A stretch of DNA of 56,995 bases from a virus (Duplodnaviria; Caudoviricetes). The stretch spans positions 1-56,995 of IMG/VR virus record IMGVR_UViG_3300035703_000115; one strand, given 5' to 3'. The notes beneath the pieces were generated by a model. That model worked only from the letters and a program-made list of their open reading frames with translations, ran no database searches and was not told the DNA's origin. This document shows positions 8,290-20,859 of the stretch, piece after piece; the first letter of the stretch is position 1; the number at the start of each line of letters is the position of its first letter. A program made the position numbers and the translations under genes.

Positions 8290-11200
8290 ATGCGCTTTGA
8301 TGTCAACGCCGCTCGCAAGGCTGGGTACACCGACGATGAGATTGCCGACTACCTTTCTGAGCAGCGCGGGTTTGACATTGGCTCGGCGCGGGAATCGGGC
8401 TATTCGTCTCGGGAGGTCTTGGACTTTCTGAGCAAGCCGGAGGTCAAAAAGCCGGCCGTCGCCAACACCCCGGCCTATGTCGAGGAGCCCATCAACTACG
8501 ACGATGCGGCAACCTCGATGGCGGGTACGCCTTCGCAATCAAACGGCGGCGGCGTCCTTCAGCGCATCGGCGCGGCGCTGCGGCCCGACCAAAATCGCAG
8601 CGTGCTTGAGGGGTACAAGCAGCCGGAGGCCGAGCGCCAAGCGGAGGTTGATCGTCGCCTGTCCTACGGTCAGGGTCCAATCAGCCAGAAGGTCGCGGCC
8701 GATGCTGACCGTGTTCGCAGTGCGCGTGGCACCAACGACCAGATCAAGTTCACCAGCCCGACCTATGAGAGCCGGGTGCGGGGGGTCGTTGACGCGATGG
8801 ACGAGCGCGGCGAGCGCTCTTTTGGCGACCTTGCCGCGCTTGGGCGTGATGGCGAGATTCAGCGGGCATTGACTCAGAGCAAGGCCGACGAGTTCCGCTC
8901 TGCCGGCGAGTGGGCCATCGACACCGCATCCAATGTGATGCAGGGCGCCGTGTCTCTGGCGCAGATGCCGGTCAATCTGATCGCGCCTGACGGCTCTCTG
9001 GCCGAGTCGCTGCGGCAGACCCAGAAGGAATTGCAGGCCGAGGAGTCTGATGTCCTCAAGGCCAGCCGTGAAGTCCTCAAGCAGCGGGTGATGAACGAGG
9101 AGGGCTTCTTCGGGCAATACGCCGCCACGGTCAAGCAACTGATCACAAACCCCACGCTCGCTATCTCTGAGGGCTTCAAGCAGTTGCCGATGTTCCTCGG
9201 GATCGTGGGCGCAGCCCGTGGTGGTGCGGCGGCGGGCGCTGCCGGCGTGGCCGCCGCAGGGCGTGTTGCTCCTACGGTTGCGCTGGCAGATGCGATTGGC
9301 GGCGGCGCTCTGACGGCGCGGGCCGCCGCTATCGGCAGCACTGTGGGCGGTGGCGCCGCAGCGGTGACGATGGCCGCGGGTGATGCGGCCGGTCAGACCT
9401 ACGAGGAACTGACCGATCCCCGGCGCACTCCGCGAGAAACCTGGGAGCAGAACCCAGACTATCAGCGCCTTGTGGCCGAGGGCAAGTCTCCGGATGAAGC
9501 GATCAATGAGTTGGCCGTTGCCAAGTCGCGCATGGCCGCGCTTGTGGCCGCGCCTCTTGGCATCTTGGGCTTCATGGGCGCAGAGGCGGCAGTCGCAGGC
9601 CGCGGTATTGTTCAGGCCGCAAGGGATGCGCTGACCTTCAAGGGTGCCGCAAAGTCTTTCGGCAAGGAAACGGTTGGTGAGCAGTTGGAGGAGGGCGGTA
9701 CACAGGCCGCATCCAACTTCGCCGTTTCTACGGTGAACCCAAACAAGTCAATCCTTGAAGGCGTGCCCGAGGCGATGGCACTGGCCGGCGTGACATCGAC
9801 GCCATTCGGCGCGATTGGTGCCTTGAGCAACTATCAGCAGGCGCGGGCTCAGTTGGACTCCGGACCTGATGTGGCGGCCCTCGTTAGCCGGGATGGTCAG
9901 ACCGCAATTGATGACCGCTTCGGCGACACCCTGCGCCCCGAGCGAGTGGCTGCCGAGCGCGAGCGCCTGGAGCGTATGCGCCGCCTGTCTGAGGCGCAGA
10001 GCGTGGATGAGGCGATTGAGTTGGCCAATGAGGTGGCCAATGCGCCGGTTGCGCCGCAGACGCCTGCTGCGCCCGCGGCGCCGGTAAACGCCGGGGATGA
10101 TCCGGTTCTGAGCAATGTGCTGACATCGCTCGGGGCACTGAGCAATCAACCAGGAGGCGTCAATGTCGGGGCATCAAATCAGCCTGCACCCACAGCTACA
10201 GGAGGCCCTGGAGTTGGGGGCGGTGACGTTCTCGGAAGCCTGGTTGCTGATGGACGAAATCCTGCTGCAGGACTGCGAGGTGGTGATGATGCCGGCGGAG
10301 TACCTAGTGTTAGTAGCCAAGGTGCAGTTGTGCTGGGCGGAGGTGCCGCCGGGGGTGGTCGTCCAGTAGTTCTCCAGAACCGCGACCGATCAACGGCGGC
10401 GTCCATCTCGCAGATGAACAGCATCGCGGCAGCACCCGACTATCTCAGGGCTGGCCCGAGCCGTGAGATGGTCACGGGTGCCCCGGTGGTTTTCGGGGAT
10501 GTGCCGGATTTTGCAGCGCTGGGGCGGCAGGAGACGGTTGTGGACGGGCGTGGCAATCGAGTTGCCGTGCAGTACGCCGTGGTGGATGCTGCCGATCTGA
10601 TCCCGTCCAACCGTGCGGATGGCACCCCGGTGTCTGAGTACGAGCAAGGCGCCGCCGGCAAACTGCGCGCGGTGGCCGGCAACGGCAGAACGGCTGGCCT
10701 GCAGGAGGCGTACAACCGCGGCACTGCGGGCGCCTATCAATCCGAGATGATGGCCGACTTGCCCAATCTCGGCGTTGACCCGGCTGCGGTGCAGTCGATG
10801 CAGCGTCCGGTCCTGGTACGGGTCATGTCGCAAGATGATGTGACACCCGACATGGGCGACCGCACGAACACGGCGGTGACGCAGAACTTGAGTCCTGTTG
10901 AGCAGGCGGCCAACGATGTGCGCCGAGTGGATGTTCGCGGGTTTGAGTTCACCGATGCGGGCGACCCGACACCGCAGACTGTTCGCTCGTTCGTGTTCTC
11001 TTTGCCTGAGTCCGAGCGCGGCAACTTGCTCAACGCTGACGGCACGCCGACGCGGCAGGCCGTTGACCGGCTCATGGGCGCCACATTCCGCGCCGCCTAT
11101 GGCAATGATGGGTTGGTGCAGTTGTACGCGCAGGCCACCGACCCGGATGCGCGGTCGGTGATCAACGCCGCGGCGATGGCGGCGGGCTCCATGTCCAGCC

Positions 11201-14200
11201 TGGTTGGGTCCGCCCCGGAGTTCGACATTCGAGGCGTGGTGTCGGATGCCATCGGGATGGCGGTCAATGCGTCCAGGCAGGGAGTTCGCCTCGCTGACTA
11301 TGCAGCCAACACCGATCTGACCACAGACGCTTATGCGGCTGACATTGCAAGGTTCCTGGGTGAGAATATCCGCTCACCCAAGAAGATGGCCGAGGGGCTG
11401 CGGGCGATGGCGAACTTTGCCGCGCAGCAGCAGCAGGCTCTGGTCAGCAACGCCACCAATGCCGGCCTGTTCGGGGATCAGCCCACGGCCAGCCGCCAGG
11501 AGATCATCAATGCCGTCTTCGGACAAGCCAACGGTCAACCCCAAGTCGCTGCTAGAAACGCCGCAGTGGCGCAGGATGGCGGTCAAGGTGCTCAACGGGC
11601 AGCAACCGACCCAGCAGGAGCAGGACGAGTTTCAGTCGATGGCGCTGCAGGAAGCCAAGCGGCGACTGGACGAAATGAGCAAGGCTCAGACCAGCAAGGA
11701 CTGACATCTCCCACGGTCGATCAGGTTCTGCAGCAGCAGGACCGTGCGGCCAATGAAGCGGAACTTGATCAGCGTGATCAGGTTCGACGCGAGAGCGAGG
11801 CGGGCGCCGATCAGTTCACGCTGCAGGCGCAGGATGGCCGGGTAGACAACACCGGCAGCCTGTTCTCAAACGACAGGGAGCAGCAGGACGAGGACTTCCT
11901 GCGGACCGTGTTCGGCGCCGAATCCGGCCAGGCCGGGCAGTCCAACTCTGGAGGCGGCACCACCAATTCCGCATCCCGCCTGCCGACCGTGGAGGGCGTG
12001 GGCTCTGTTGTGCAGATGAAGGTCGGGCAGACCTTCCAGATCCGTGACCAAGGTCAGGTTCACCAGGTTCGCGTGGTGGACTCCAAGTCATCGGGCGTTT
12101 CGTCCAGGGCTCTGGACATCATCGCCAAGGTGTTCGGCAAGCGTGTGGTGTTCGTGGACCCCGGCACCTTGGATGTCGATGGATTCGTGCGGCCTGACGA
12201 CAACCGCAACATCTACATCAGCGTGCGCTCCAGGATCAACCCGCTGGCCGTGCTTGGCCACGAGTTGACGCACCTGCTCAAGCGCGACAACCCGCAAGCC
12301 TACGCCGCCCTGGAGGCGGTGGTGATGCGCGAACTGCGCGAGGGTGCGGGCAAGAGCTTCTCTGCCTACTACGGACCCGGCGCCAATACCGAGGAATTGG
12401 TTTCCGACCTGGTGGGCAACCGCCTGATGGACAAGGACTTTCTGGTCAAGTTGTTCGCCGAGATCCAGGCTCAGAACCCGCAGGGCGCGCAGGGCATCAT
12501 CGCCAAGTTGGCCGCGATCATCAACCGGGTGGTTTCTCGGTTCATGGAGTTGTCCAAGCAGGCCGGCTTTGAGACGGACGCCTTGGTCAAGCGAGTGGCC
12601 CCGATCCAGGATGCGGTGCGGCAGGCTCTGAAGGAGTACGCGCTGCAGCAGGGTCTGCGGCCGGCGCAGATGGAGGTTGCGCTGGCGCGTGCGGGAGCGG
12701 GCTTGAGCATTGAGGGTGCGGCGCCCGTGCGGCGCAGTCCGGTTCGACCGGCCAGCGCGGATCGTGCAGACCTCAACCGTTCGCTCGGCGCGCAGCGCGT
12801 CTCTCCGCGACTGCCAACCGCAGTCAAGGCCACGGAAAATCCGATGGGCAACGACCGACTGCAGCCGGACCTAGATTCAGCCAAGCGGGACGCTGTTGTC
12901 TTCGCGCACAACATCAACCTGATGGCGCAGTACCCCAACTTCGTCAATGTTGGCGGCTCTGTGGACCAAATGGCCGAGGCCATGATCACGCAGATGAAGG
13001 ACAACCTGGTGTGGCTGCACAACCAGTGGCGTCCTGAACTGCGCGAGCGGTCCCGACTCTGGTATGTGGGTGGGAATCGAATCTCACACCGTATGGCTTC
13101 GCGGTTTAGGACCGAGCCCTGGCGTGTGGCTGCCGTGATTGCGGCGACCAGCCCTCAGAAGGACTGGTTCCAGAACGTCTCTTTGGCCGAGCGCATTTTG
13201 GAGGCGGTGGTCAACAACTCGCAGATGGCCTGGACGGCGCAGATGACCGAGACGGTCAACTCCCGCGACTGGGGCGGCAAGGAGTCGCGCGATCTGGGGT
13301 TCACGCCGCGCAATGAAATCTCTCGCCTGCAGGGCAAGACCTTGCGTGATCTGTACGACCCTCAGAATCCGCAGTCTCTTTTGGATATGGCGGTATGGGT
13401 TCGCGCTTGGGATGAAACGTACAACCCCCGCATGGCCAGGGTGATCTCGCCTGAAGGCAAGTTCATTGATGAGTTCGACTCGACCAAGGACGGTCGTCCA
13501 ATCGGCCTGCGTTGGCAGAGTTTTGCGACCATTGCCAAGACGCTGGACATCCTGACTGCGCCTGATCGGGCGACAGTGTCTTCCATGATCGGCTCGAACC
13601 ATAAGGTTCGCTCGTTCTACAACAACATCATCGCGCCGTTTGATGATGAGGACGTGACCATCGACACCCATGCCGTGGCCGCCGCGCTGATGCGACCACT
13701 GGGGTCGTCAGCCACCGAGGTGGCTCACAACTTTGGCACCAACGAAAAGGGGATGCCGGGGCCGAAGAACAGTGCCATCACGGGACTTTTCGGCACCTAC
13801 CCGATCTACGCTGAAGCGTATCGCCGGGCTGCCCGCGAGGTTGGGGTGCTTCCTCGCGAGATGCAGTCCATCACTTGGGAGGCGGTGCGCGGCCTGTTCC
13901 GTCCAGAGCAGAAGAATGAGAGAATCAAGGGCGAGGCAGACCGCATTTGGCGCGAAGTCTCTGAGGGAGAACTGGATGTCAACGAAGCGCGGCAGCAAAT
14001 CTCTGGCCTGGTTGGTGGCATCCAAGACCCCGCCTGGGTCCGATCCCCTGCTGGAAGTAATGAAGCAGCGCGGGATTCCTCTTACGCAGGAGGAGTACCT
14101 GAAGATGGCGTACCCGGAAGGGGTGCCCAACCCGGTGCCGCCCGAGGTGATGGCCGAGATGCCAGCGCAACTCCGGCAAGCCTGAGTCGCGGGCGACGAG

Positions 14201-17200
14201 TCGCGCCCAACCCTGACTCCGCAAACTTCAAGCGTTGGAGCGGTAACGCCCCGCTGATCACCTCTGCAGCAGCGGTTGACCATGTCTTCAAGACGGGTCA
14301 GAAGGTGGTGCTTGAGGGCTTCCACGGTACTGGCCGGGGTGATCGTGTTGGCACGGTGTTCCAGCGCAAGCGCGCCACCTCCGGCCCGATGGCGTTCTTC
14401 ACCAGTTCGCCGGTGCTTGCGAGTTCATACGCGCAGGGGAAGCCAGACACCAGCCGCGCACTGGAGGACAACCCGTTTGAGAGTTGGTTCAAGTTCAAAG
14501 GGAAGGGAATGCGAACGGCGGTCAACCTCGACCGCGCGTGGTATTTCCTTGATCAAGAGAGCAAGGCCAAGATCGCCAAGCGGATGCCTGACATTCGCAC
14601 GGACGATGACGGCAACATCGTCTACGAAGAGGGCGGCGGCGACCTCGGCAACTACGACTGGGAACTGAAGCAAACCAAGTCGGCCTACCTGCGTGAGGGT
14701 AACCCGCTGAAGGCGGCCGTTGAATCTTGGTTGAGCAGCGGCTCCATCTACGGCGACGAGGGCAGTTTCCGCCAGGTGCTGCGCTTGGCCGGCTTCCCGA
14801 TGGATGCGCTAGATTACGACAACCCGCAGGAGACGTACCCGTTCGTCTACAAGGTCTATGTCTCCATGCTCAACCCGCTGGTGACCAGCGACATTCCGAA
14901 GGAAGTGGACGATGCCTTGCGCGCGGCTGCCGCAAAGGACCGCAGCAAGGCCAAGTCACAGTTCGGCGTGGACTCATGGGACAAGAACACCCGCACGCTC
15001 AAGGAGTGGGTGGGCGAGTACCTGAACCCATCCAATGGGGATAACCGCTACGTTTGGACGAGCATCCCTGATAAGGTGACCGAGGTTTTCAAGAGCCTGG
15101 GTTATGACGGGATCATCGACTACTCGGGGAAGAACGGTTCCACCGAAGTCGCGCCGGTCTACATCCCGTTTGAAGAGGGTCAGGTCAAGAGCGCCCTGAG
15201 CAACAGCGGCGAGTTTGACCGCAGCAAGAAGGACATTCAGGCCAGCAGATCGCGTGAGCGCCTACTGTCAATGCCTGCGGTGCCGGTGAGTCCGCTACCC
15301 GATGGTATGGCTCTTGGTGATCTTCGAGTCTTGGCTAGTGAGCGGTACAAGGCCGCTGCCAAACTTGGCCCCGTCAGGATGAAGGATGACCGCGCCGTGC
15401 TGTTGACATCGGTGGGGATGAAGAAGTCGCGCAGCCACAGCGCCGACAAGCGGGTGCTGGACTTGATGGGCTCAATTCGCGAGGTGCTTGGCGCGGCCGA
15501 GCCCGTGGCTTCGATTCCGCATCAGAAGGAAAACCCAGGCGACTCAATCCGCGCGTGGCACTACTACGGCGCGAAGGTGGATATCGATGGCGAGGAGGCG
15601 TTTGCCAAACTCGTTGTGCGCGAGTCCGTCAACGGCGAGATTTACTACGACACCGACCTGTCTGGCGTGGAAGATATCAGCGGTCGTGCTGGTGACGCTG
15701 CCCGATCCAAAACCGGGGCGGCAGCCGTTTCCGCTGACAAAAGAACTCTAGCCGATCTTTTGGGCGCGGGCAATCTTGGGAGTGAGGTTGAGTTGAGCCG
15801 CGGCCGCTCCGAAATCGGTTTCTACTCCGCCCTGTCTGAGGGCATTGACGGCATCAAGGTCAGTGCTGCGCCTGCAGCCGGATGGCGCGATGCCATCAAG
15901 GGCCTGGTGAACAAGGGTGCGGCCAAGGCCGATGAGGTGGAGTGGTCGGGGGTCAATGACTTCCTGAGCCTGCAGGCCGGCAAGGTGACCAAGCAGCAGG
16001 TGCTGGACTACCTGGGCGCCAATGGGGTGCGGGTAGAGGAGGTGGTGCTGGGCGGCAACACCGCATTGACGCCAAGCGAGCAGACCGAGATGGACGAACT
16101 GCTTGACTTGCGCCGGCGCTACGAAGAGGGAGAGGCCGGAGTCTACGAGGCGGCCGACGCCGACAGGTTGGAAGAACTGATGCGCAAGCGCATGCAGGAC
16201 GCCGAAGACGTGGCGCTGCCAAAGTACGGCCAGTACACCCTCCCCGGCGGCGAGAACTACCGCGAGGTGCTGCTGACGCTGCCAGATAGGCGCGAGCTGC
16301 CAGAGGGCTACAAGGTCAAGAATGACCCCGACTATGGGTGGATGGTTGAGAGCCCCGAGGGCGGCATGGTGTGGCAGGGCAGAACGCGAGAGGAGGCTGT
16401 CGCCAATGCCAGAAGCAGCCCGACTGTGCTGGGCCAGAAGCAGCCGGACAAGTCTTACCGTTCCTCACACTGGGACCAGCCCAACGTCATCGCCCACATC
16501 CGCGTCAACGACCGCACCGATGCCGATGGCAAGCGCGTGCTGTTCGTGGAGGAGATTCAATCTGACTGGGGCCAGGAGGGGAAGAAGAAGGGTTTTGCCG
16601 AGAAGTCCCCGAGGCCGGTCCGCGTGTTTGACCGGCGAACTGGGGCGGAGGTTGCACGGTTCAATACCGGGCGCGAGGCTGAGGAATTCATCGCGTCGGA
16701 AGATCCGCGCATGGACAGGCTTGAGTACGAGGAGGACCAGGGTCGCAACTCCGGCATCCCATCCGCACCCTACGTCACCAAGACCGAAGGCTGGCTGAAC
16801 CTCTCCCTCAAGCGCGTGATGATCATGGCCGCAGAGGGAGGCTATGACAAGGTTGCGTTCGTCAATGGCGAGCAGTCTGCTGATCGGTATGACCTTTCAA
16901 AGCAGATCAGCAAGGTTCGCTACGAGGACAGGAGCATCCAAGGCTCTGGCAAGCCCACGTTGGATGGTTCGCCTGAGAGCGGGGAGTTCTATGCCTATGA
17001 CCTTGAAGGGAATCTACAGATTAACAGGCGCCTCAATGACCCAGTCAAGGAGTTGCCTGACCTAATCGGTAAACAACTGGCTGAACGTCTTTTGAATGCT
17101 GAGCCGACAGAAGCTCGCGGCTATGGCGGTGGCTTCCGTCGCCGAGAGGTTTCTGGCGTTGACCTCAAAGTCGGCGGCGAAGGCATGAAGACCTTCTACG

Positions 17201-20200
17201 ACACCATCGTGCCCACGGCGCTGAAGAAGCTGCTGCCCAAGGTGGGTGGTGGGCAGATGAGCAATGTTGATGTTGTCTTGCAAGAAGCATACGAGCGCGA
17301 TCCCGAAGGCTTCCCGGCCAAGATTGCCGCTCAACCCGGCTTTGATGTCACCCCCGAGATGGTGCAGAAGGTATCCGATGGGGTGCCGCTGTTCAGCCGC
17401 GGCCGCAACTCTCAGATCGACACGCCTGAGTTCAAGCGGTGGTTTGGGGATTGGGAGGCTGTTATGCACCGCGTCTTCCTAGACGGCCCCCCGGTCGCCT
17501 CAGTAGCTGGCGACACATTCAGCTCTGATGGAGTGCCGCTAACGGAGAAGGTGCCCAAGTGGTACGCGGAGCGCGGCTTCTCTACGGTGGATGTGGCCGG
17601 TATCGGGCCAGTCTCGCTAGACGAGAAGGCCGTAAAAAACAGCCTTTCGCACGGTATCGGGAGGGATAAGGCCGCTGCGTTTGCGGTGGTCCCCGATGTT
17701 CTTCTAAAGGGCCGCATCATCCACCGTGAGCGGCATGATGGTGGCCGCGACACCGACATGGTGTATCACATAGCCGCGCCGGTCAGGATTGGTGGCCGCG
17801 ACTTTATCGCTGACGTATTGATTCGCGAGGACAGCAACATCCGCCGCATGTACGTCCACGAAGTCGTGCTCAAAGAAAAACTCCAGCAGTCCGCCTTCAA
17901 GACCAGTGCAGATGCAGTCGAAACTGGGGTGCGTGCTGGAGCGGGTGCTGGAGCGATGCGTAGTGTGCTTCAGAGAGTTTTCACCGTCAACCCCGCAACC
18001 GTCTCCAAAGTCGTCGATGCTGATGGCAAGCCGATGGAGGTGTACAACGGCTCGCCGGACGGGATTGAGGCGTTTGAAGAAGGCCGAGACGCCTACTTCA
18101 CCAGCAGCCGCCGATTGGCCGAGGAGTACACCGACCGCCGAGGTATGTGGTTGTCCAAGGGCGCGAACCCGACTGTCACCTCTGCTTACCTGTCAATTCA
18201 GAACCCGTTGGTGATTGACGCGCTTGGCAAGCGCAACGACAACATCCCGGTGCCGTGGCAGGAGTGGAGCCCGAAGGTATTCGGCAGGCTTCCAGATGGT
18301 GCAGTGAGCGTTGAGGCTGCGGCCAAGCGTGCCCGTGAGATGGGTTACGACGGTCTGATTGTTCGCAACGTGGTGGACAGCGCCACGACCGATGGCAAGA
18401 CCAAGGGCGACGTGTTCGTGGCCTTCAGCCCCGAGCAGATCAGGGAATCGACCGGCGACAGCAGCGACATCACGAAGTCCTCTGGCCGCGCCACCAGTGA
18501 CCTGGACCTGATCGCCAAGCGCGACGAGATGGGCCGATTGAAGTTCGGCCTGGGCAGCAAGGCTTACAGCCTCGTGGCCGAGGTGGCCAACAACGTGCTG
18601 GATCGGGTTCGCATGAAGCCCATCTCCGAAGACCTCGCTCGGGCCATGCTCAAGATGAAGGTCGCCATCGAGCAGGCGCAGGAGCGCACGGTGGATGTGG
18701 CCAAGTCCATGAGCGAACTGGACCCCGCCGAGCGGCAGATGATCTCGGATGTGATTGAGCAGGAACTGACCGCAGGCGTGGTGCCCCCAACTCGTGTGCT
18801 GCAGATCGCGGCCACCCTGCAGGGCATCATGTCCGAGCAGTCCAAGGAACTGATCGACCTGGGCATGCTGCGCCAGGAAGATGCTGACCGATGGGATGGA
18901 CGCTACATCCCGCGCTTCTACGAGCAGACTCTTGGCAAGGAAGCCTCGGCCTGGATGAAGGCGGTCAAGCAGTTGTTCACTCGCCCGCGCGCGATGATGG
19001 GCATCAAGGGCAACAACCTGAAGTCTCGCGGTCTGTGGGAGACGATCCCTGCGGACGAGTTGGCATCGTGGACGGCCAATGGTTGGGAGGCTCGCGACCC
19101 CGCGTTCGATCCGGCCACCTCAACCGAGGTCCGCATCTGGCGCGACTACACCCGCCCCGAGCGGGATGGCATGGGCGAGATTCGGGACGCCATGTTCCGC
19201 TTCGTCATGGGCTACCAGAAGGCCCAGCGCGACATCGCCTTGGGCAAGATGTACCGGCACATCAACCAAACGATGGCTAGCAGCGTCGAGAAGGATGGAT
19301 TCGTTCGGGTGCCGGACTCCAGCATCGATGGCGTGGACGTGCCGTCCTACGGCGAGCTGGCCGGCAAGTGGGTTCCGCGCGAGGTGCTGGATCACCTGAG
19401 CGCATTCGACTCCACGCAGCGCAACGCCCTGACCCGCTTCTACCAAAAGGCTCTTTCCTACTGGAAGGAGGGCAAGGTGGTGCTCAACCCGGTGAGCCAT
19501 GCCAACAACATCCTGTCCAACCTGACGATGGCCCACTTCGCCGGCGTGTCGTACTGGGACGGCGGCAAGTACATGGCCGCCCTGCGTGACATGGTCAAGG
19601 GCTCGCCCATGCTGGACGAGGCCAAGGACGCGGGCCTGTTCGTGGGATCGTTCAACCAGGCCGAGATCGCCAAGGCGCTGCCCGAGGAGTTGAAACTCCT
19701 GGCCGGCAAGTCCGAGAGCAAGGCCGGGCAGGCGGTGGACTTCGCCTTCACCGCGATGACGTTCTTCTTGCGAAAGCCGATGAACATGGCCTACGAGGTG
19801 GAGGACCAGTACTTCCGGTACCTGCTGTACCGCGACGCACGACAGCGCGGCATGGAGCCGGAGGACGCGGTGCGCCACTCGCAGCGGCACATCTTCACCT
19901 ACGACGACCTGCCGCAGGGCGCGCGCGTGGTGCGCGACACGGCGCTGCCATTCTTCGCCTACACCTACAAGGTGATCCCGGTCCTGGCCAAGACGGCGCT
20001 GGAGTACCCGCATCGGTACGCGATGCCAGCGGCCATCCTGTACACCCTCAACGCCCTTGGATTCGCGATGGCCGCCGGCGATGAGGACGATGACTGGATG
20101 GAGATCATCCGCAAGTACGCCACCGACGCCGACTTCCGCAAGAAGGTCAGCGACCTGGAGGGCCAAGAGCGCGAGAACCTGCCGCCGTGGATGCAGGGCG

Positions 20201-20859
20201 CAAGCGCCTCTCTTGGAACGCCCAAGGCGATCCGCCTGGGCGAGGATGACAAGACCGGTCTGCCGGTGTACCTGGACGTGAGCAAGATCTTCCCCGGCGG
20301 CGATCTGTTGGATGTCACATCGAACGCCGGCGGCCTGCCGTGGCTGCAGCCGCTCACGCCTTCAAGTCCTGTGCTCAACGCGGCCGCGGCGCTGTTCTTC
20401 AACCGCGATCCGTTCTACGGCAAGGACCTGGTGGACAAGAACGACACCCCCGCAGAGGCCGCAGAGAAGCGCGCCGAATGGGCGTGGAAGCAGTTCTCGC
20501 CGGCCATCACGGTCTACAACTACCACTGGGACCGCGGCATGAACGTCTTGGCCAACGCCACCGGAACGGACATCCTGGGCTACACCGGGCGCGGCAAGGA
20601 CGGCATCCCGGTAGATGCGATGTACGCGGCCATGCAGACCTTCGGCATCAAGGCTCGGCCCATTGATCTGGAGAAGTCGGCCGACATCAACGCCAACAAG
20701 GAGAAGTCCATCATCCGCTCCATTGAGGCAGAAATTTCGCAACTCAAGCGCCTGGAGGCCAAGGGCGCAATGACCTCGGAGAAGGCTCAAAAGCAGATCG
20801 ACCTTGAGAACGAGAAGATCCAGCGCATGCGCGACAAGCAAACTGAGTCAGTTGATTGA
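8290..20859 (+). CDS. Giant polyvalent protein (probably virion-injected): ddrB-like ParB domain, zincin peptidase-like domain, TIDTHA domain, two ART-PolyVal-like domains, two BECR/LPD3-like RNase domains, EEIQSD domain, helical C-terminal region
   Basis: 4189 aa uninterrupted. Motifs: LQNRDR/YAVVDAADL/VAGNGR (~10372-11480); HELTH (~12259); VTIDTHA (~13654); FHGT..FFTS..GYDGII (~14320-15120); WHYYG..KLVVRE..YYD (~15555-15650); EEIQSDW (~16549); FKRWFG..YNGS..YFT..GYDGLI (~17430-18360) interrupted by YHIAAPV..ADVLIRED..MYVHEV. Confidence 0.85.
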   Translation: MRFDVNAARKAGYTDDEIADYLSEQRGFDIGSARESGYSSREVLDFLSKPEVKKPAVANTPAYVEEPINYDDAATSMAGTPSQSNGGGVLQRIGAALRPDQNRSVLEGYKQPEAERQAEVDRRLSYGQGPISQKVAADADRVRSARGTNDQIKFTSPTYESRVRGVVDAMDERGERSFGDLAALGRDGEIQRALTQSKADEFRSAGEWAIDTASNVMQGAVSLAQMPVNLIAPDGSLAESLRQTQKELQAEESDVLKASREVLKQRVMNEEGFFGQYAATVKQLITNPTLAISEGFKQLPMFLGIVGAARGGAAAGAAGVAAAGRVAPTVALADAIGGGALTARAAAIGSTVGGGAAAVTMAAGDAAGQTYEELTDPRRTPRETWEQNPDYQRLVAEGKSPDEAINELAVAKSRMAALVAAPLGILGFMGAEAAVAGRGIVQAARDALTFKGAAKSFGKETVGEQLEEGGTQAASNFAVSTVNPNKSILEGVPEAMALAGVTSTPFGAIGALSNYQQARAQLDSGPDVAALVSRDGQTAIDDRFGDTLRPERVAAERERLERMRRLSEAQSVDEAIELANEVANAPVAPQTPAAPAAPVNAGDDPVLSNVLTSLGALSNQPGGVNVGASNQPAPTATGGPGVGGGDVLGSLVADGRNPAAGLRGGDDAGGVPSVSSQGAVVLGGGAAGGGRPVVLQNRDRSTAASISQMNSIAAAPDYLRAGPSREMVTGAPVVFGDVPDFAALGRQETVVDGRGNRVAVQYAVVDAADLIPSNRADGTPVSEYEQGAAGKLRAVAGNGRTAGLQEAYNRGTAGAYQSEMMADLPNLGVDPAAVQSMQRPVLVRVMSQDDVTPDMGDRTNTAVTQNLSPVEQAANDVRRVDVRGFEFTDAGDPTPQTVRSFVFSLPESERGNLLNADGTPTRQAVDRLMGATFRAAYGNDGLVQLYAQATDPDARSVINAAAMAAGSMSSLVGSAPEFDIRGVVSDAIGMAVNASRQGVRLADYAANTDLTTDAYAADIARFLGENIRSPKKMAEGLRAMANFAAQQQQALVSNATNAGLFGDQPTASRQEIINAVFGQANGQPQVAARNAAVAQDGGQGAQRAATDPAGAGRVSVDGAAGSQAATGRNEQGSDQQGLTSPTVDQVLQQQDRAANEAELDQRDQVRRESEAGADQFTLQAQDGRVDNTGSLFSNDREQQDEDFLRTVFGAESGQAGQSNSGGGTTNSASRLPTVEGVGSVVQMKVGQTFQIRDQGQVHQVRVVDSKSSGVSSRALDIIAKVFGKRVVFVDPGTLDVDGFVRPDDNRNIYISVRSRINPLAVLGHELTHLLKRDNPQAYAALEAVVMRELREGAGKSFSAYYGPGANTEELVSDLVGNRLMDKDFLVKLFAEIQAQNPQGAQGIIAKLAAIINRVVSRFMELSKQAGFETDALVKRVAPIQDAVRQALKEYALQQGLRPAQMEVALARAGAGLSIEGAAPVRRSPVRPASADRADLNRSLGAQRVSPRLPTAVKATENPMGNDRLQPDLDSAKRDAVVFAHNINLMAQYPNFVNVGGSVDQMAEAMITQMKDNLVWLHNQWRPELRERSRLWYVGGNRISHRMASRFRTEPWRVAAVIAATSPQKDWFQNVSLAERILEAVVNNSQMAWTAQMTETVNSRDWGGKESRDLGFTPRNEISRLQGKTLRDLYDPQNPQSLLDMAVWVRAWDETYNPRMARVISPEGKFIDEFDSTKDGRPIGLRWQSFATIAKTLDILTAPDRATVSSMIGSNHKVRSFYNNIIAPFDDEDVTIDTHAVAAALMRPLGSSATEVAHNFGTNEKGMPGPKNSAITGLFGTYPIYAEAYRRAAREVGVLPREMQSITWEAVRGLFRPEQKNERIKGEADRIWREVSEGELDVNEARQQISGLVGGIQDPAWVRSPAGSNEAARDSSYAGGVPEDGVPGRGAQPGAARGDGRDASATPASLSRGRRVAPNPDSANFKRWSGNAPLITSAAAVDHVFKTGQKVVLEGFHGTGRGDRVGTVFQRKRATSGPMAFFTSSPVLASSYAQGKPDTSRALEDNPFESWFKFKGKGMRTAVNLDRAWYFLDQESKAKIAKRMPDIRTDDDGNIVYEEGGGDLGNYDWELKQTKSAYLREGNPLKAAVESWLSSGSIYGDEGSFRQVLRLAGFPMDALDYDNPQETYPFVYKVYVSMLNPLVTSDIPKEVDDALRAAAAKDRSKAKSQFGVDSWDKNTRTLKEWVGEYLNPSNGDNRYVWTSIPDKVTEVFKSLGYDGIIDYSGKNGSTEVAPVYIPFEEGQVKSALSNSGEFDRSKKDIQASRSRERLLSMPAVPVSPLPDGMALGDLRVLASERYKAAAKLGPVRMKDDRAVLLTSVGMKKSRSHSADKRVLDLMGSIREVLGAAEPVASIPHQKENPGDSIRAWHYYGAKVDIDGEEAFAKLVVRESVNGEIYYDTDLSGVEDISGRAGDAARSKTGAAAVSADKRTLADLLGAGNLGSEVELSRGRSEIGFYSALSEGIDGIKVSAAPAAGWRDAIKGLVNKGAAKADEVEWSGVNDFLSLQAGKVTKQQVLDYLGANGVRVEEVVLGGNTALTPSEQTEMDELLDLRRRYEEGEAGVYEAADADRLEELMRKRMQDAEDVALPKYGQYTLPGGENYREVLLTLPDRRELPEGYKVKNDPDYGWMVESPEGGMVWQGRTREEAVANARSSPTVLGQKQPDKSYRSSHWDQPNVIAHIRVNDRTDADGKRVLFVEEIQSDWGQEGKKKGFAEKSPRPVRVFDRRTGAEVARFNTGREAEEFIASEDPRMDRLEYEEDQGRNSGIPSAPYVTKTEGWLNLSLKRVMIMAAEGGYDKVAFVNGEQSADRYDLSKQISKVRYEDRSIQGSGKPTLDGSPESGEFYAYDLEGNLQINRRLNDPVKELPDLIGKQLAERLLNAEPTEARGYGGGFRRREVSGVDLKVGGEGMKTFYDTIVPTALKKLLPKVGGGQMSNVDVVLQEAYERDPEGFPAKIAAQPGFDVTPEMVQKVSDGVPLFSRGRNSQIDTPEFKRWFGDWEAVMHRVFLDGPPVASVAGDTFSSDGVPLTEKVPKWYAERGFSTVDVAGIGPVSLDEKAVKNSLSHGIGRDKAAAFAVVPDVLLKGRIIHRERHDGGRDTDMVYHIAAPVRIGGRDFIADVLIREDSNIRRMYVHEVVLKEKLQQSAFKTSADAVETGVRAGAGAGAMRSVLQRVFTVNPATVSKVVDADGKPMEVYNGSPDGIEAFEEGRDAYFTSSRRLAEEYTDRRGMWLSKGANPTVTSAYLSIQNPLVIDALGKRNDNIPVPWQEWSPKVFGRLPDGAVSVEAAAKRAREMGYDGLIVRNVVDSATTDGKTKGDVFVAFSPEQIRESTGDSSDITKSSGRATSDLDLIAKRDEMGRLKFGLGSKAYSLVAEVANNVLDRVRMKPISEDLARAMLKMKVAIEQAQERTVDVAKSMSELDPAERQMISDVIEQELTAGVVPPTRVLQIAATLQGIMSEQSKELIDLGMLRQEDADRWDGRYIPRFYEQTLGKEASAWMKAVKQLFTRPRAMMGIKGNNLKSRGLWETIPADELASWTANGWEARDPAFDPATSTEVRIWRDYTRPERDGMGEIRDAMFRFVMGYQKAQRDIALGKMYRHINQTMASSVEKDGFVRVPDSSIDGVDVPSYGELAGKWVPREVLDHLSAFDSTQRNALTRFYQKALSYWKEGKVVLNPVSHANNILSNLTMAHFAGVSYWDGGKYMAALRDMVKGSPMLDEAKDAGLFVGSFNQAEIAKALPEELKLLAGKSESKAGQAVDFAFTAMTFFLRKPMNMAYEVEDQYFRYLLYRDARQRGMEPEDAVRHSQRHIFTYDDLPQGARVVRDTALPFFAYTYKVIPVLAKTALEYPHRYAMPAAILYTLNALGFAMAAGDEDDDWMEIIRKYATDADFRKKVSDLEGQERENLPPWMQGASASLGTPKAIRLGEDDKTGLPVYLDVSKIFPGGDLLDVTSNAGGLPWLQPLTPSSPVLNAAAALFFNRDPFYGKDLVDKNDTPAEAAEKRAEWAWKQFSPAITVYNYHWDRGMNVLANATGTDILGYTGRGKDGIPVDAMYAAMQTFGIKARPIDLEKSADINANKEKSIIRSIEAEISQLKRLEAKGAMTSEKAQKQIDLENEKIQRMRDKQTESVD
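10163..10369 (+). CDS. Nested small ORF 1 (68 aa) in the +1 frame of the giant gene
   Basis: AGGAGG 5 nt before the ATG; nearly all codons end in G/C in this frame, while the host frame becomes Gly-rich filler with A/T-ending codons. Confidence 0.7.
   Translation: MSGHQISLHPQLQEALELGAVTFSEAWLLMDEILLQDCEVVMMPAEYLVLVAKVQLCWAEVPPGVVVQ
11510..11704 (+). CDS. Nested small ORF 2 (64 aa) in the +1 frame of the giant gene
   Basis: AGGAG 7 nt before the ATG; helical-looking product MPSSDKP...EAKRRLDEMSKAQTSKD; begins just after the ParB-like domain. Confidence 0.6.
   Translation: MPSSDKPTVNPKSLLETPQWRRMAVKVLNGQQPTQQEQDEFQSMALQEAKRRLDEMSKAQTSKD
13976..14185 (+). CDS. Nested small ORF 3 (69 aa) in the +1 frame of the giant gene
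   Basis: GAGGGAG 6 nt before the ATG; product includes DPLLEVMKQRGIPLTQEEYLKMAYPEG; its stop coincides with the SRGR module junction. Confidence 0.7.
   Translation: MSTKRGSKSLAWLVASKTPPGSDPLLEVMKQRGIPLTQEEYLKMAYPEGVPNPVPPEVMAEMPAQLRQA
15668..15738 (-). ncRNA. Candidate antisense structured sRNA 1, downstream of RNase-like domain 1
   Basis: Closing stem GUCAGCGG/CCGCUGAU, inner GCUGCC/GGCAGC, and CCCGG-UUUUGGA-UCGGG; G-U pairs form only on the minus strand; the 5' end lies 7 nt from a predicted -10. Confidence 0.55.
15745..15773 (-). promoter_or_regulatory. Antisense sigma70-like promoter TTGCCC-N17-TAGAGT
   Basis: Reverse complements of gggcaa (15768-15773) and actcta (15745-15750), 17-bp spacer. 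Confidence 0.55.
17872..17954 (-). ncRNA. Candidate antisense structured sRNA 2, downstream of RNase-like domain 2
   Basis: Closing stem GCUCCAGCA/UGCUGGAGU, inner CCGC/GCGG and CCAG/CUGG, CAGU-UUCG-ACUG tetraloop, 3' UUUUUCUUU tail. Confidence 0.6.
17962..17990 (-). promoter_or_regulatory. Antisense sigma70-like promoter TTGACG-N17-CACACT
   Basis: Reverse complements of cgtcaa (17985-17990) and agtgtg (17962-17967), 17-bp spacer. Confidence 0.5.

What the first reader, a model, noticed from the sequence alone, without database searches (positions are those of the whole stretch)
10152..10369. Nested overlapping gene 1, ending just before the ParB-like domain
A perfect AGGAGG lies 5 nt before the ATG at 10163. 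The 68 codons are almost all G/C-ending (cag gag gcc ctg gag ttg ggg gcg gtg...) and give a globular-looking acidic/hydrophobic protein. Over the same bases the host frame becomes Gly/Val/Ala filler with unusual A/T-ending codons. The stop falls 2 nt before the LQNRDR start of the ddrB-like ParB domain.
Basis: seen in the sequence. Interest (0 to 1): 0.8.

Follow-up and report, generated by a model that had tools for sequence, protein, structure and literature searches.

The report
Small gene nested in giant phage gene
A 68-codon gene for a small acidic helical protein is written one base out of frame inside the floppy linker of a 4189-codon phage virion-protein gene, and related phages keep the same arrangement, so it is a real hidden gene that ordinary annotation would miss.

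Summary
The ORF is a real protein-coding gene (N1), not a chance frame. HMMER found 4 relatives of 67-69 aa. In 12 of 12 fetched loci the relative lies in the +1 frame of a giant open frame, in phages of 43-69% G+C. In three independent close pairs, 23 differences are silent in N1 but change the host protein, and 1 does the reverse. The host frame is open more often than N1's protein sequence would allow by chance, so both frames are kept. Start Met, Ser2 and a purine-rich ribosome-binding site are conserved. N1 travels with the N-terminal module of the giant protein, not with the ParB domain. Function is unknown: no Pfam, PHROG, fold or atlas match. My inference is a dedicated partner or chaperone of the N-terminal module. 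Two further nested candidates (N2, N3) lie in later linkers.

The parts
8290..20859 (+). Host gene: 4189-codon polyvalent virion protein. It has an N-terminal module, ddrB-ParB, DUF7178, a weak ART-PolyVal match and further domains.
   Evidence: ORF list. Pfam: ddrB-ParB 68.1 bits at aa 695-846, DUF7178 89.8 bits, ART-PolyVal 14.3 bits, below its cut-off. PHROG: aa 67-587 match phrog_2206 'virion RNA polymerase', profile positions 22-495 of 3406, E 1.8e-13.
10139..10141 (+). TGA stop in the nested (+1) frame, 7 codons upstream of the N1 start. It closes that frame upstream.
   Evidence: Sequence; open stretch 10142-10369.
10152..10157 (+). Shine-Dalgarno AGGAGG, 5 nt before the N1 start.
   Evidence: SD-like purine runs at the same place in 8 of 8 aligned relatives.
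10103..10162 (+). The 60 nt upstream of the N1 start, nearly invariant within close pairs. Probably the translation initiation region of N1 (inferred).
   Evidence: 0, 1, 0 and 1 mismatches per 60 nt in four close pairs (which share loci), against 4-15 in the adjacent upstream bin. No common sequence motif across distant lineages other than the SD.
10163..10369 (+). N1: nested gene of 68 codons plus TAG. The product is acidic (pI 4.09, 9 D+E against 1 K+R) and hydrophobic, with three predicted helices.
10162..10371 (+). Host-frame linker read over N1: 70 residues, Gly/Val/Ala-rich and low in complexity. It is kept open but is not constrained in sequence.
10372..10827 (+). ddrB-like ParB domain of the host protein (aa 695-846). 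It starts 2 nt after the N1 stop.
   Evidence: Pfam PF18763, E 9.7e-19.

Best explanation
Bases 10163-10369 are a real protein-coding gene (N1) fully embedded, on the same strand and in the +1 frame, in the linker that follows the N-terminal module of a 4189-residue polyvalent virion protein.

Shown: the N1 protein is under purifying selection, the host frame over it is only kept open, and the arrangement is shared by at least six phage lineages.

Inferred: ribosomes start N1 independently at its own SD and ATG on the long late mRNA of the giant gene. This gives a 68-residue acidic three-helix protein in step with the giant protein.

Inferred further (about 0.3): N1 acts on the N-terminal module with which it is always inherited, as a dedicated chaperone or assembly/packaging cofactor. 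That module has Gly/Ala-rich hydrophobic stretches and resembles the N-terminal part of N4-type virion RNA polymerases. N1 is less likely to act on the ParB domain downstream.
For: (1) Family. phmmer against 1.84 billion representatives gave 4 proteins of 67-69 aa, 41-50% identical, E 3.6e-10 to 1.9e-4, and no longer protein. In the 14-row alignment M1, S2, L8, L12, A15, A26, W27, L29, D31, L34 and P44 are invariant, and starts and ends coincide.

(2) Context. All 12 loci fetched with N1 (5 viral, 7 metagenomic; L013=L010 and L017=L011 are duplicates) carry the relative +1 inside an open frame of 1404-2491 codons, or 1669 or more for L007. Locus G+C is 0.43-0.69.

(3) Substitutions. In window vs L007, 4 of 4 differences are silent in N1 and change the host residue. 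Three independent close pairs were pooled (window/L007, L009/L018, L011/L014). They give 23 host-changing/N1-silent, 1 host-silent/N1-changing, 11 changing both and 2 silent in both, on 137.7, 171.3, 291.3 and 2.7 sites. The binomial p for the excess is 3.5e-7. The rate ratio for N1 (both-changing over N1-silent) is 0.23. Outside the nested regions the host ORF differs from its relative at codon positions 1/2/3 in 89/51/423 places.

(4) Host frame kept open. Given N1's protein sequence and host codon usage, the host frame would be open by chance with probability 0.115 (window), 0.254, 0.005, 0.046, 0.084 and 0.534 in six lineages. The product is about 3e-7 (my arithmetic, assuming independence).

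(5) Initiation. The invariant ATG is preceded by a purine-rich SD-like run in 8 of 8 aligned loci. A stop in the nested frame lies 3-15 codons upstream in 8 of the 9 distinct contexts (87 codons in L012). The 60 nt upstream are nearly invariant in four close pairs.

(6) Link to the N-terminal module. N1 always lies at host residue about 436-625, after a weakly alignable N-terminal module that is 17-25% identical to the window's. N1 itself is 30-42% identical. Downstream domains differ: there is no ddrB-ParB in the 4 relatives scanned, and divergence and indels rise directly after the N1 stop in 3 of the 4 close pairs, not in window vs L007.
Against: There is no expression evidence of any kind. 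No listed RNA run holds this stretch, and the phage is uncultured (no match in GenBank phages).

The function has no support beyond gene position. There was no Pfam or PHROG family. There was no fold match (best Foldseek E 4.4 in PDB and 1.5 in BFVD; best VIA Z 3.0). There was no atlas hit. The AlphaFold model is only moderately confident (mean pLDDT 70.6, pTM 0.39).

The genomic context of the four HMMER relatives P0001-P0004 could not be seen, so a free-standing form cannot be excluded.

Close pairs within a lineage share ancestry, and the six 'lineages' are not strictly independent.

AGGAGG alone is not enriched in the window.
Confidence: 0.85

Rival explanations
1. N1 is not started on its own. 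It would be the alternative C-terminus of a truncated product made by a programmed +1 frameshift of ribosomes reading the giant ORF. That would give a protein of about 690 residues (N-terminal module plus the N1 sequence) beside the full-length protein.
For: The nested frame is on the same strand and +1. The module boundary coincides with the N1 stop. Two-product frameshifts are known in phage structural genes (own knowledge: lambda G/GT).
Against: A stop in the nested frame lies only 3-15 codons before the ATG in 8 of 9 distinct contexts, which leaves 9-45 nt for a shift. No shared slippery sequence is seen there in 8 aligned loci. Met1 and Ser2 are invariant in 14 of 14 sequences, and an SD-like run precedes the ATG in 8 of 8. 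These features are not needed by a frameshift.
Confidence: 0.05
2. N1 is real, but its partner is an effector domain of the giant protein, here the ddrB-like ParB domain that starts 2 nt after its stop. N1 would be a built-in inhibitor or immunity protein that keeps that domain silent in the producing cell.
For: N1 lies directly next to the ParB domain in this phage. It is small and very acidic (pI 4.09), as many nuclease or DNA-binding-protein inhibitors are (own knowledge). Earlier notes of this scan propose partner genes for neighbouring enzyme domains in other genomes (unchecked leads).
Against: In the 4 relatives scanned with Pfam the giant protein has no ddrB-ParB domain at all. The sequence after N1 differs between lineages. 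N1 is nevertheless conserved, so ParB cannot be its general partner.
Confidence: 0.08
3. The giant ORF is not translated through this stretch. N1 would be an ordinary small gene lying between two genes, and the host frame over it would be open by accident.
For: N1's third positions are G/C-rich, so host codons there seldom begin with T. In this window the host frame would be open by chance in 11.5% of synonymous recodings, and in 53% for L012.
Against: There is no stop in the host frame anywhere before 20857, so ribosomes reading the N-terminal module must read on. The host frame is open in 12 of 12 loci, including lineages where the chance value is 0.005-0.084. Upstream and downstream parts are always in the same frame.
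Confidence: 0.03
4. The ORF is a chance open frame in G+C-rich DNA and codes for nothing. The composition would come from the Gly-rich linker alone.
For: Long alternative frames are common here: 17 of the 33 +1-frame stretches of at least 45 codons are at least 68 codons long. AGGAGG is not enriched.
Against: There are relatives of the same length at E down to 3.6e-10. The start and end are conserved. There are 23 N1-silent against 1 N1-changing/host-silent differences. The frame is also open in relatives of 43-49% G+C, where chance frames are short (the third frame there is open for only 9-17 codons).
Confidence: 0.02

Closest known systems
Rz/Rz1 two-component spanin genes of phage lambda, where the o-spanin gene Rz1 is embedded in the +1 frame of the i-spanin gene Rz. 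The architecture is recalled; PMC5295617 and PMC6139136 were seen only as search listing and start of abstract.
   Same: A small gene lies wholly inside a larger phage gene, on the same strand and in the +1 frame, with its own start. Both products are thought to be made from one late mRNA.
   Different: N1 has no signal peptide or lipobox and is not in a lysis cassette. The host gene is a 4189-codon virion polyvalent protein. The overlapped host segment is an unconstrained low-complexity linker, whereas in Rz/Rz1 both overlapped parts are functional. There is no sequence or fold relation.
Polyvalent proteins of phages and conjugative elements (Iyer, Burroughs, Anand, de Souza, Aravind 2017, PMC5512222; passages read with 'find').
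   Same: The host gene fits this class. It is a very long multi-domain protein with ddrB-like ParB, DUF7178 and an ART-PolyVal-like region, beside virion genes.
   Different: That paper's main text has 0 occurrences of 'overlap' or 'linker', and its 2 uses of 'nested' concern a hairpin fold. Small genes nested in the linkers are not described there. Its supplementary architecture lists could not be seen.
Overprinted (de novo overlapping) viral genes, where one partner is ordered and the other disordered (reviews PMC8227390 and PMC3494269, seen as search listing only).
   Same: Selective load is divided: one frame carries a folded, constrained protein, and the other a disordered segment that tolerates almost any change.
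   Different: Here the constrained frame is the small nested one and the tolerant frame belongs to the large gene. Which frame is older cannot be told, because the composition pattern is the same in low- and high-GC relatives.
Earlier notes of this scan on +1-frame micro-genes in linkers of giant phage polyvalent genes in other genomes (e1-3443486, e1-3292661, e1-6097177, e1-5901425, e1-6075534, e1-6056688, e1-3778229).
   Same: Same layout: SD-led genes of about 45-70 codons, +1 frame, in inter-domain linkers, directly behind a domain.
   Different: They come from other genomes and, as far as shown, other small-protein families. They are unchecked AI notes and count as leads only.

Membership tests
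Embedded same-strand overlapping gene (Rz1-in-Rz type architecture) | The small ORF lies wholly inside a larger ORF, on the same strand and in another frame. | tested here: met
   10163-10369 lies inside 8290-20859, offset +1. The same holds in 12 of 12 related loci.
Embedded same-strand overlapping gene (Rz1-in-Rz type architecture) | The nested frame is under purifying selection as a protein. | tested here: met
   23 N1-silent/host-changing against 1 N1-changing/host-silent differences in three independent pairs; rate ratio 0.23. Relatives at E 3.6e-10.
Embedded same-strand overlapping gene (Rz1-in-Rz type architecture) | The host frame is also maintained (true dual coding). | tested here: met
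   The host frame is open in 12 of 12 loci. Chance values are 0.005-0.534 per lineage. The amino-acid sequence of the linker itself shows no constraint.
Embedded same-strand overlapping gene (Rz1-in-Rz type architecture) | Own translation start signals. | tested here: met
   AGGAGG 5 nt before the ATG. SD-like run and invariant ATG in 8 of 8 aligned loci. This is sequence evidence only.
Embedded same-strand overlapping gene (Rz1-in-Rz type architecture) | Both products shown to be made. | not testable with these tools
   The phage is uncultured. No RNA or proteome data were available.
o-spanin (Rz1-like lipoprotein) | N-terminal signal sequence with a lipobox Cys; proline-rich periplasmic part; location in the lysis cassette. 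| tested here: not met
   The N1 sequence starts MSGHQISLHPQLQE, with no hydrophobic leader. Its Cys residues are at 38 and 57. The gene lies in a virion-protein gene, not near lysis genes.
Polyvalent protein (host gene) | One long polypeptide with several unrelated effector domains typical of the class, in a phage late/virion context. | tested here: met
   ddrB-ParB 68.1 bits (cut-off 27.6) and DUF7178 89.8 bits (cut-off 27). ART-PolyVal scores only 14.3 bits (cut-off 31.2) in the window but 69.5 bits in relative L012. The N-terminal part resembles phrog_2206 virion RNA polymerase.
Any curated protein family for N1 (Pfam-A, PHROGs) | Profile match. | tested here: not met
   0 families at E up to 0.1 in Pfam and up to 1 in PHROGs.

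The most novel reading that the evidence does not exclude
Giant polyvalent virion genes may be built from shuffling cassettes. Each cassette would be a protein module plus a trailing linker that carries, one base out of frame, the gene of a small dedicated partner (chaperone, packaging cofactor or inhibitor) of that module. N1 would be the partner of the conserved N-terminal ejection/packaging module, and N2 and N3 the partners of the ParB and DUF7178 modules. Because the partner gene lies inside the linker, recombination that swaps modules cannot separate a module from its partner. The overlap would then be a linkage device rather than genome compression.
Probability: 0.3. Interest if true: 0.8.

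Novelty: new variant of a known kind. Interest (0 to 1): 0.66.

Why it matters
Same-strand embedded genes are textbook rarities in tailed phages, and annotation pipelines forbid them. Here a whole small-protein family exists only as a gene hidden inside the linker of giant virion-protein genes, in phages ranging from 43 to 69% G+C.

If this is general (two more candidates in this gene, a second nested family in relatives, and similar notes from other genomes of this scan), three things follow:
- Polyvalent-protein genes encode more proteins than annotated.
- 'Disordered linkers' in them are partly dictated by another gene.
- Module shuffling in these weapons-carrying proteins may move domain-partner pairs as units.

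It also gives a clean natural case in which selective load in an overlap is carried almost wholly by one frame.

Tried and rejected
- GenBank phages: blastn of 9700-10900, tblastn of N1 and tblastn of the N-terminal module found no match.
- The word-index protein search for N1 at near length found no candidate.
- One genome per prokaryote species (genome contigs): no N1 relative.
- Pfam and PHROGs for N1, N2 and N3: nothing.
- Fold searches with the N1 model gave nothing usable: Foldseek PDB best E 4.4, BFVD best E 1.5, VIA-align against 48,161 chains best Z 3.0.
- ESM Atlas: no usable hit.
- Complex prediction of the N-terminal module (624 aa, 10-row alignment) with N1 gave the verdict 'no answer' with score 0.00 in both runs. 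This counts neither for nor against binding.
- Sequencing runs: no RNA holder was listed.
- Promoter and terminator scan of 9700-10600: 0 and 0.
- An RNA fold that pairs the SD with 10059-10069 appears in the minimum-energy structure, but the z-score is -1.53 and 16 of 200 shuffles fold as well. I do not claim it.
- Flanking direct or inverted repeats that would mark a mobile insertion: only short chance-like matches.
- I considered and rejected a compensated frameshift or sequencing error (two indels). The arrangement, with stops on both sides of N1 and its own ATG, recurs in all lineages.
- Literature: (polyvalent protein + overlapping gene + phage) found 1 unrelated paper. (polyvalent proteins paper) found no mention of overlapping genes. 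One search found general overprinting reviews only. I found no printed description of genes nested in polyvalent-protein linkers in these three searches. Supplements were closed.
Full report
**What the window is**

The window is a whole IMG/VR virus record of 56,995 bases, 97% complete by CheckV's estimate, with 61.5% G+C. The finding lies inside ORF 8290..20859 (+), 4189 codons.

Pfam finds a ddrB-like ParB domain at residues 695-846 (68.1 bits), DUF7178, and a weak ART-PolyVal match. PHROGs matches residues 67-587 to the N-terminal part of phrog_2206, 'virion RNA polymerase' (E 1.8e-13). The host gene is therefore a polyvalent virion protein in the sense of Iyer et al. 2017 (PMC5512222; passages read).

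**Checking the observation**

All stated features are there:
- AGGAGG lies at 10152-10157, the ATG at 10163, and the TAG at 10367-10369.
- The frame is +1 to the host.
- A TGA closes that frame at 10139-10141.
- G+C at codon positions 1/2/3 is 0.68/0.31/0.87 in the nested frame and 0.86/0.68/0.30 in the host frame over the same bases. The host overall has 0.65/0.46/0.76.
- The host peptide over the overlap is 30% Gly, 14% Val and 14% Ala.
- LQNRDR starts at 10372, which is also where the Pfam ParB match starts.

Length and the SD alone are not remarkable. Of the 33 +1-frame open stretches of at least 45 codons in the host ORF, 17 are at least 68 codons long. AGGAGG occurs 36 times against 28.5 expected. 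The composition is remarkable: this is the only one of the 33 stretches with second-position G+C below 0.59.

**A close relative**

One near relative exists in IMG/VR (L002/L003/L007 = G001). Over the host ORF, 570 of 9708 aligned positions differ. Outside the nested regions these differences fall at host codon positions 1/2/3 in 89/51/423 places, the normal pattern of a gene read in the host frame.

Inside 10163-10369 there are 4 differences and none is at a host third position. All four are silent in the nested frame (GCC>GCA, CTG>TTG, TTG>TTA, CTA>CTG) and change the host residue. The N1 protein is 100% identical in the relative, and the host frame is open there too.

**A protein family**

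phmmer of the 68-residue product against 1.84 billion cluster representatives found 4 proteins, all 67-69 residues long and 41-50% identical, with E from 3.6e-10 to 1.9e-4. No longer protein contains the sequence. The alignment is collinear from Met1 to the C-terminus.

Scanning IMG/VR with the alignment gave 5 loci and the metagenome collection gave 7. One genome per prokaryote species gave none. L013 and L017 are duplicates of L010 and L011.

In all 12 loci the relative lies in the +1 frame of a very long open frame: 1404-2491 codons, and at least 1669 for L007. The third frame is open for only 9-40 codons. The loci have 43-69% G+C.

With 14 sequences, M1, S2, L8, L12, A15, A26, W27, L29, D31, L34 and P44 are invariant.

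**Which frame is selected**

I counted differences by their effect in both frames, in the manner of OLGenie, for close pairs in three separate lineages: window/L007, L009/L018 and L011/L014. The pooled counts are:

| Effect of the difference | Differences | Sites |
|---|---|---|
| Host-changing, N1-silent | 23 | 137.7 |
| Host-silent, N1-changing | 1 | 171.3 |
| Changing both | 11 | 291.3 |
| Silent in both | 2 | 2.7 |

The excess of N1-silent changes has binomial p = 3.5e-7. The N1 rate ratio (both-changing over N1-silent) is 0.23. The host ratio (both-changing over host-silent) is 6.5, so there is no sign of constraint on the linker's amino acids.

The more distant pair L009/L018... L009/L010 gives 31 host-changing/N1-silent, 14 host-silent/N1-changing and 26 changing both. 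Across 15 pairs of six lineages the mean identity is 0.40 for N1 and 0.28 for the host-frame peptide.

**Is the host frame really kept?**

I drew 20,000 synonymous recodings of each N1 protein with the host ORF's codon usage. The host frame came out open with these probabilities:

| Locus | Probability host frame open by chance |
|---|---|
| Window | 0.115 |
| L008 | 0.254 |
| L009 | 0.005 |
| L010 | 0.046 |
| L011 | 0.084 |
| L012 | 0.534 |
| L014 | 0.111 |

The host frame is open in all of them. The product for the six lineages (L014 left out) is about 3e-7 (my arithmetic, assuming independence). The upstream and downstream parts of the giant ORF are always in one frame, and there is no host-frame stop. 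This is therefore true dual coding. N1 carries the amino-acid constraint, and the host frame carries the constraints 'stay open' and 'stay a flexible linker'.

In the 43-49% G+C relatives, N1's third positions are 0.60-0.74 G+C while the host ORFs have third-position G+C of 0.31-0.43. So the host frame shapes N1's codon choice. It says nothing about which frame is older.

**How N1 is started**

The ATG is invariant. It is preceded at 5-8 nt by a purine-rich SD-like run in 8 of 8 aligned loci: AGGAGG, GGGGAG, GAGGAGGG, GGGGAAG, AAGGAAG and AGAGGA. Many ordinary genes of this phage have similar GAGG/GGAG runs.

A stop in the nested frame lies 3-15 codons upstream in 8 of 9 distinct contexts, and 87 codons upstream in L012. 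In four close pairs (which share loci) the 60 nt before the ATG have 0, 1, 0 and 1 mismatches, against 4-15 in the adjacent upstream bin.

These features fit independent initiation on the long mRNA and fit a programmed frameshift poorly. There is no promoter-like or terminator-like site nearby. A hairpin pairing the SD with 10059-10069 is not significant.

**What N1 goes with**

N1 always lies at host residue about 436-625, just after an N-terminal module with Gly/Ala-rich hydrophobic stretches. That module aligns weakly between lineages (17-25% identity to the window's), less well than N1 itself (30-42%).

What follows N1 differs. It is ParB only in this phage and its near relative. None of the 4 relatives scanned has ddrB-ParB, while L012 has InPase, DUF7178 and ART-PolyVal. 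In 3 of the 4 close pairs (not window vs L007), divergence and indels rise directly after the N1 stop. The unit of inheritance therefore appears to be 'N-terminal module plus N1', with the N1 stop at the module border.

**What N1 is**

The protein has 68 residues, pI 4.09, 9 acidic against 1 basic residue, and GRAVY +0.62. AlphaFold2 with the 14-row alignment gives three helices (10-17, 23-36, 45-58) with mean pLDDT 70.6. There is no signal peptide or lipobox.

Nothing places it in a family or a known fold: no Pfam, PHROG, PDB, BFVD or atlas match.

My mechanistic proposal is inference from position, co-inheritance and composition, and I give it about 0.3. It is that N1 is a dedicated chaperone or packaging cofactor of the N-terminal module. 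The rival, that N1 inhibits the ParB domain, is weakened by the relatives that keep N1 without ParB.

**Known things and novelty**

The architecture is that of lambda Rz1 inside Rz (recalled; PMC5295617 and PMC6139136 seen as listing and abstract start), but N1 is not a spanin. The polyvalent-protein paper does not mention overlapping or nested genes in its main text. Two further searches found nothing specific.

Earlier AI notes of this scan describe the same layout in other genomes. They are leads, not evidence, and none shares N1's sequence.

I rate the finding a new variant of a known kind: a new small-protein family that, in every context seen, is a gene embedded in the linker of giant virion genes.

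**Verdict**

- Real overlapping gene: about 0.9.
- Independent initiation: about 0.85.
- Partner of the N-terminal module: about 0.3.
- Interest: 0.66.

Noticed in passing
window 11510-11704 (+), +1 frame of the host ORF: N2 is a second SD-led nested ORF (aggag, 7 nt, ATG) of 64 codons in the linker after the ParB region. Codon-position G+C is 0.60/0.39/0.84, and host third-position G+C dips to 0.33-0.47. The region 11390-11890 is identical in the near relative, so there is no substitution test. No relative was found at near length. Its status is open.
   Followed up: partly
window 13976-14185 (+), +1 frame of the host ORF: N3 is a third SD-led nested ORF (gagggag, 6 nt, ATG) of 69 codons in the linker after DUF7178. 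There is one relative of 68 aa at 74% identity, E 2.7e-24, with the same start. All 3 differences from the near relative are silent in N3; two are also silent in the host frame. It is probably real.
   Followed up: partly
L010 7837-7980, L011 8206-8346, L015 8263-8412 (+1 frame of the giant ORFs): The relatives carry a second, different nested ORF of 46-49 codons with a GGAG run upstream and a shared motif (VSQDKFKIGPK or similar), about 1.8-2.2 kb after their N1 gene. It has no counterpart in the window.
   Followed up: no
window 11915-11959 and 15817-18466 against G001: The near relative has about 500 extra bases at window 11915-11959. It also replaces window 15817-18466 (2650 nt) with about 1110 unrelated bases, so whole segments of the polyvalent gene are swapped between 95%-identical phages.
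   Followed up: no
window 10085-10162: The stretch upstream of N1 has no difference from the near relative, while the 300 nt before it have 8-14 differences per 100 nt. The same is seen in three other close pairs. No shared motif beyond the SD was found.
   Followed up: partly
window 8290-8440 and L012 3240-3390: The first 48 residues of the giant protein contain a twice-repeated motif of the type A-G-Y-[ST]-x-x-E-I-x-D-[FY]-L. They are 58% identical in L012 and absent from the other relatives.
   Followed up: no
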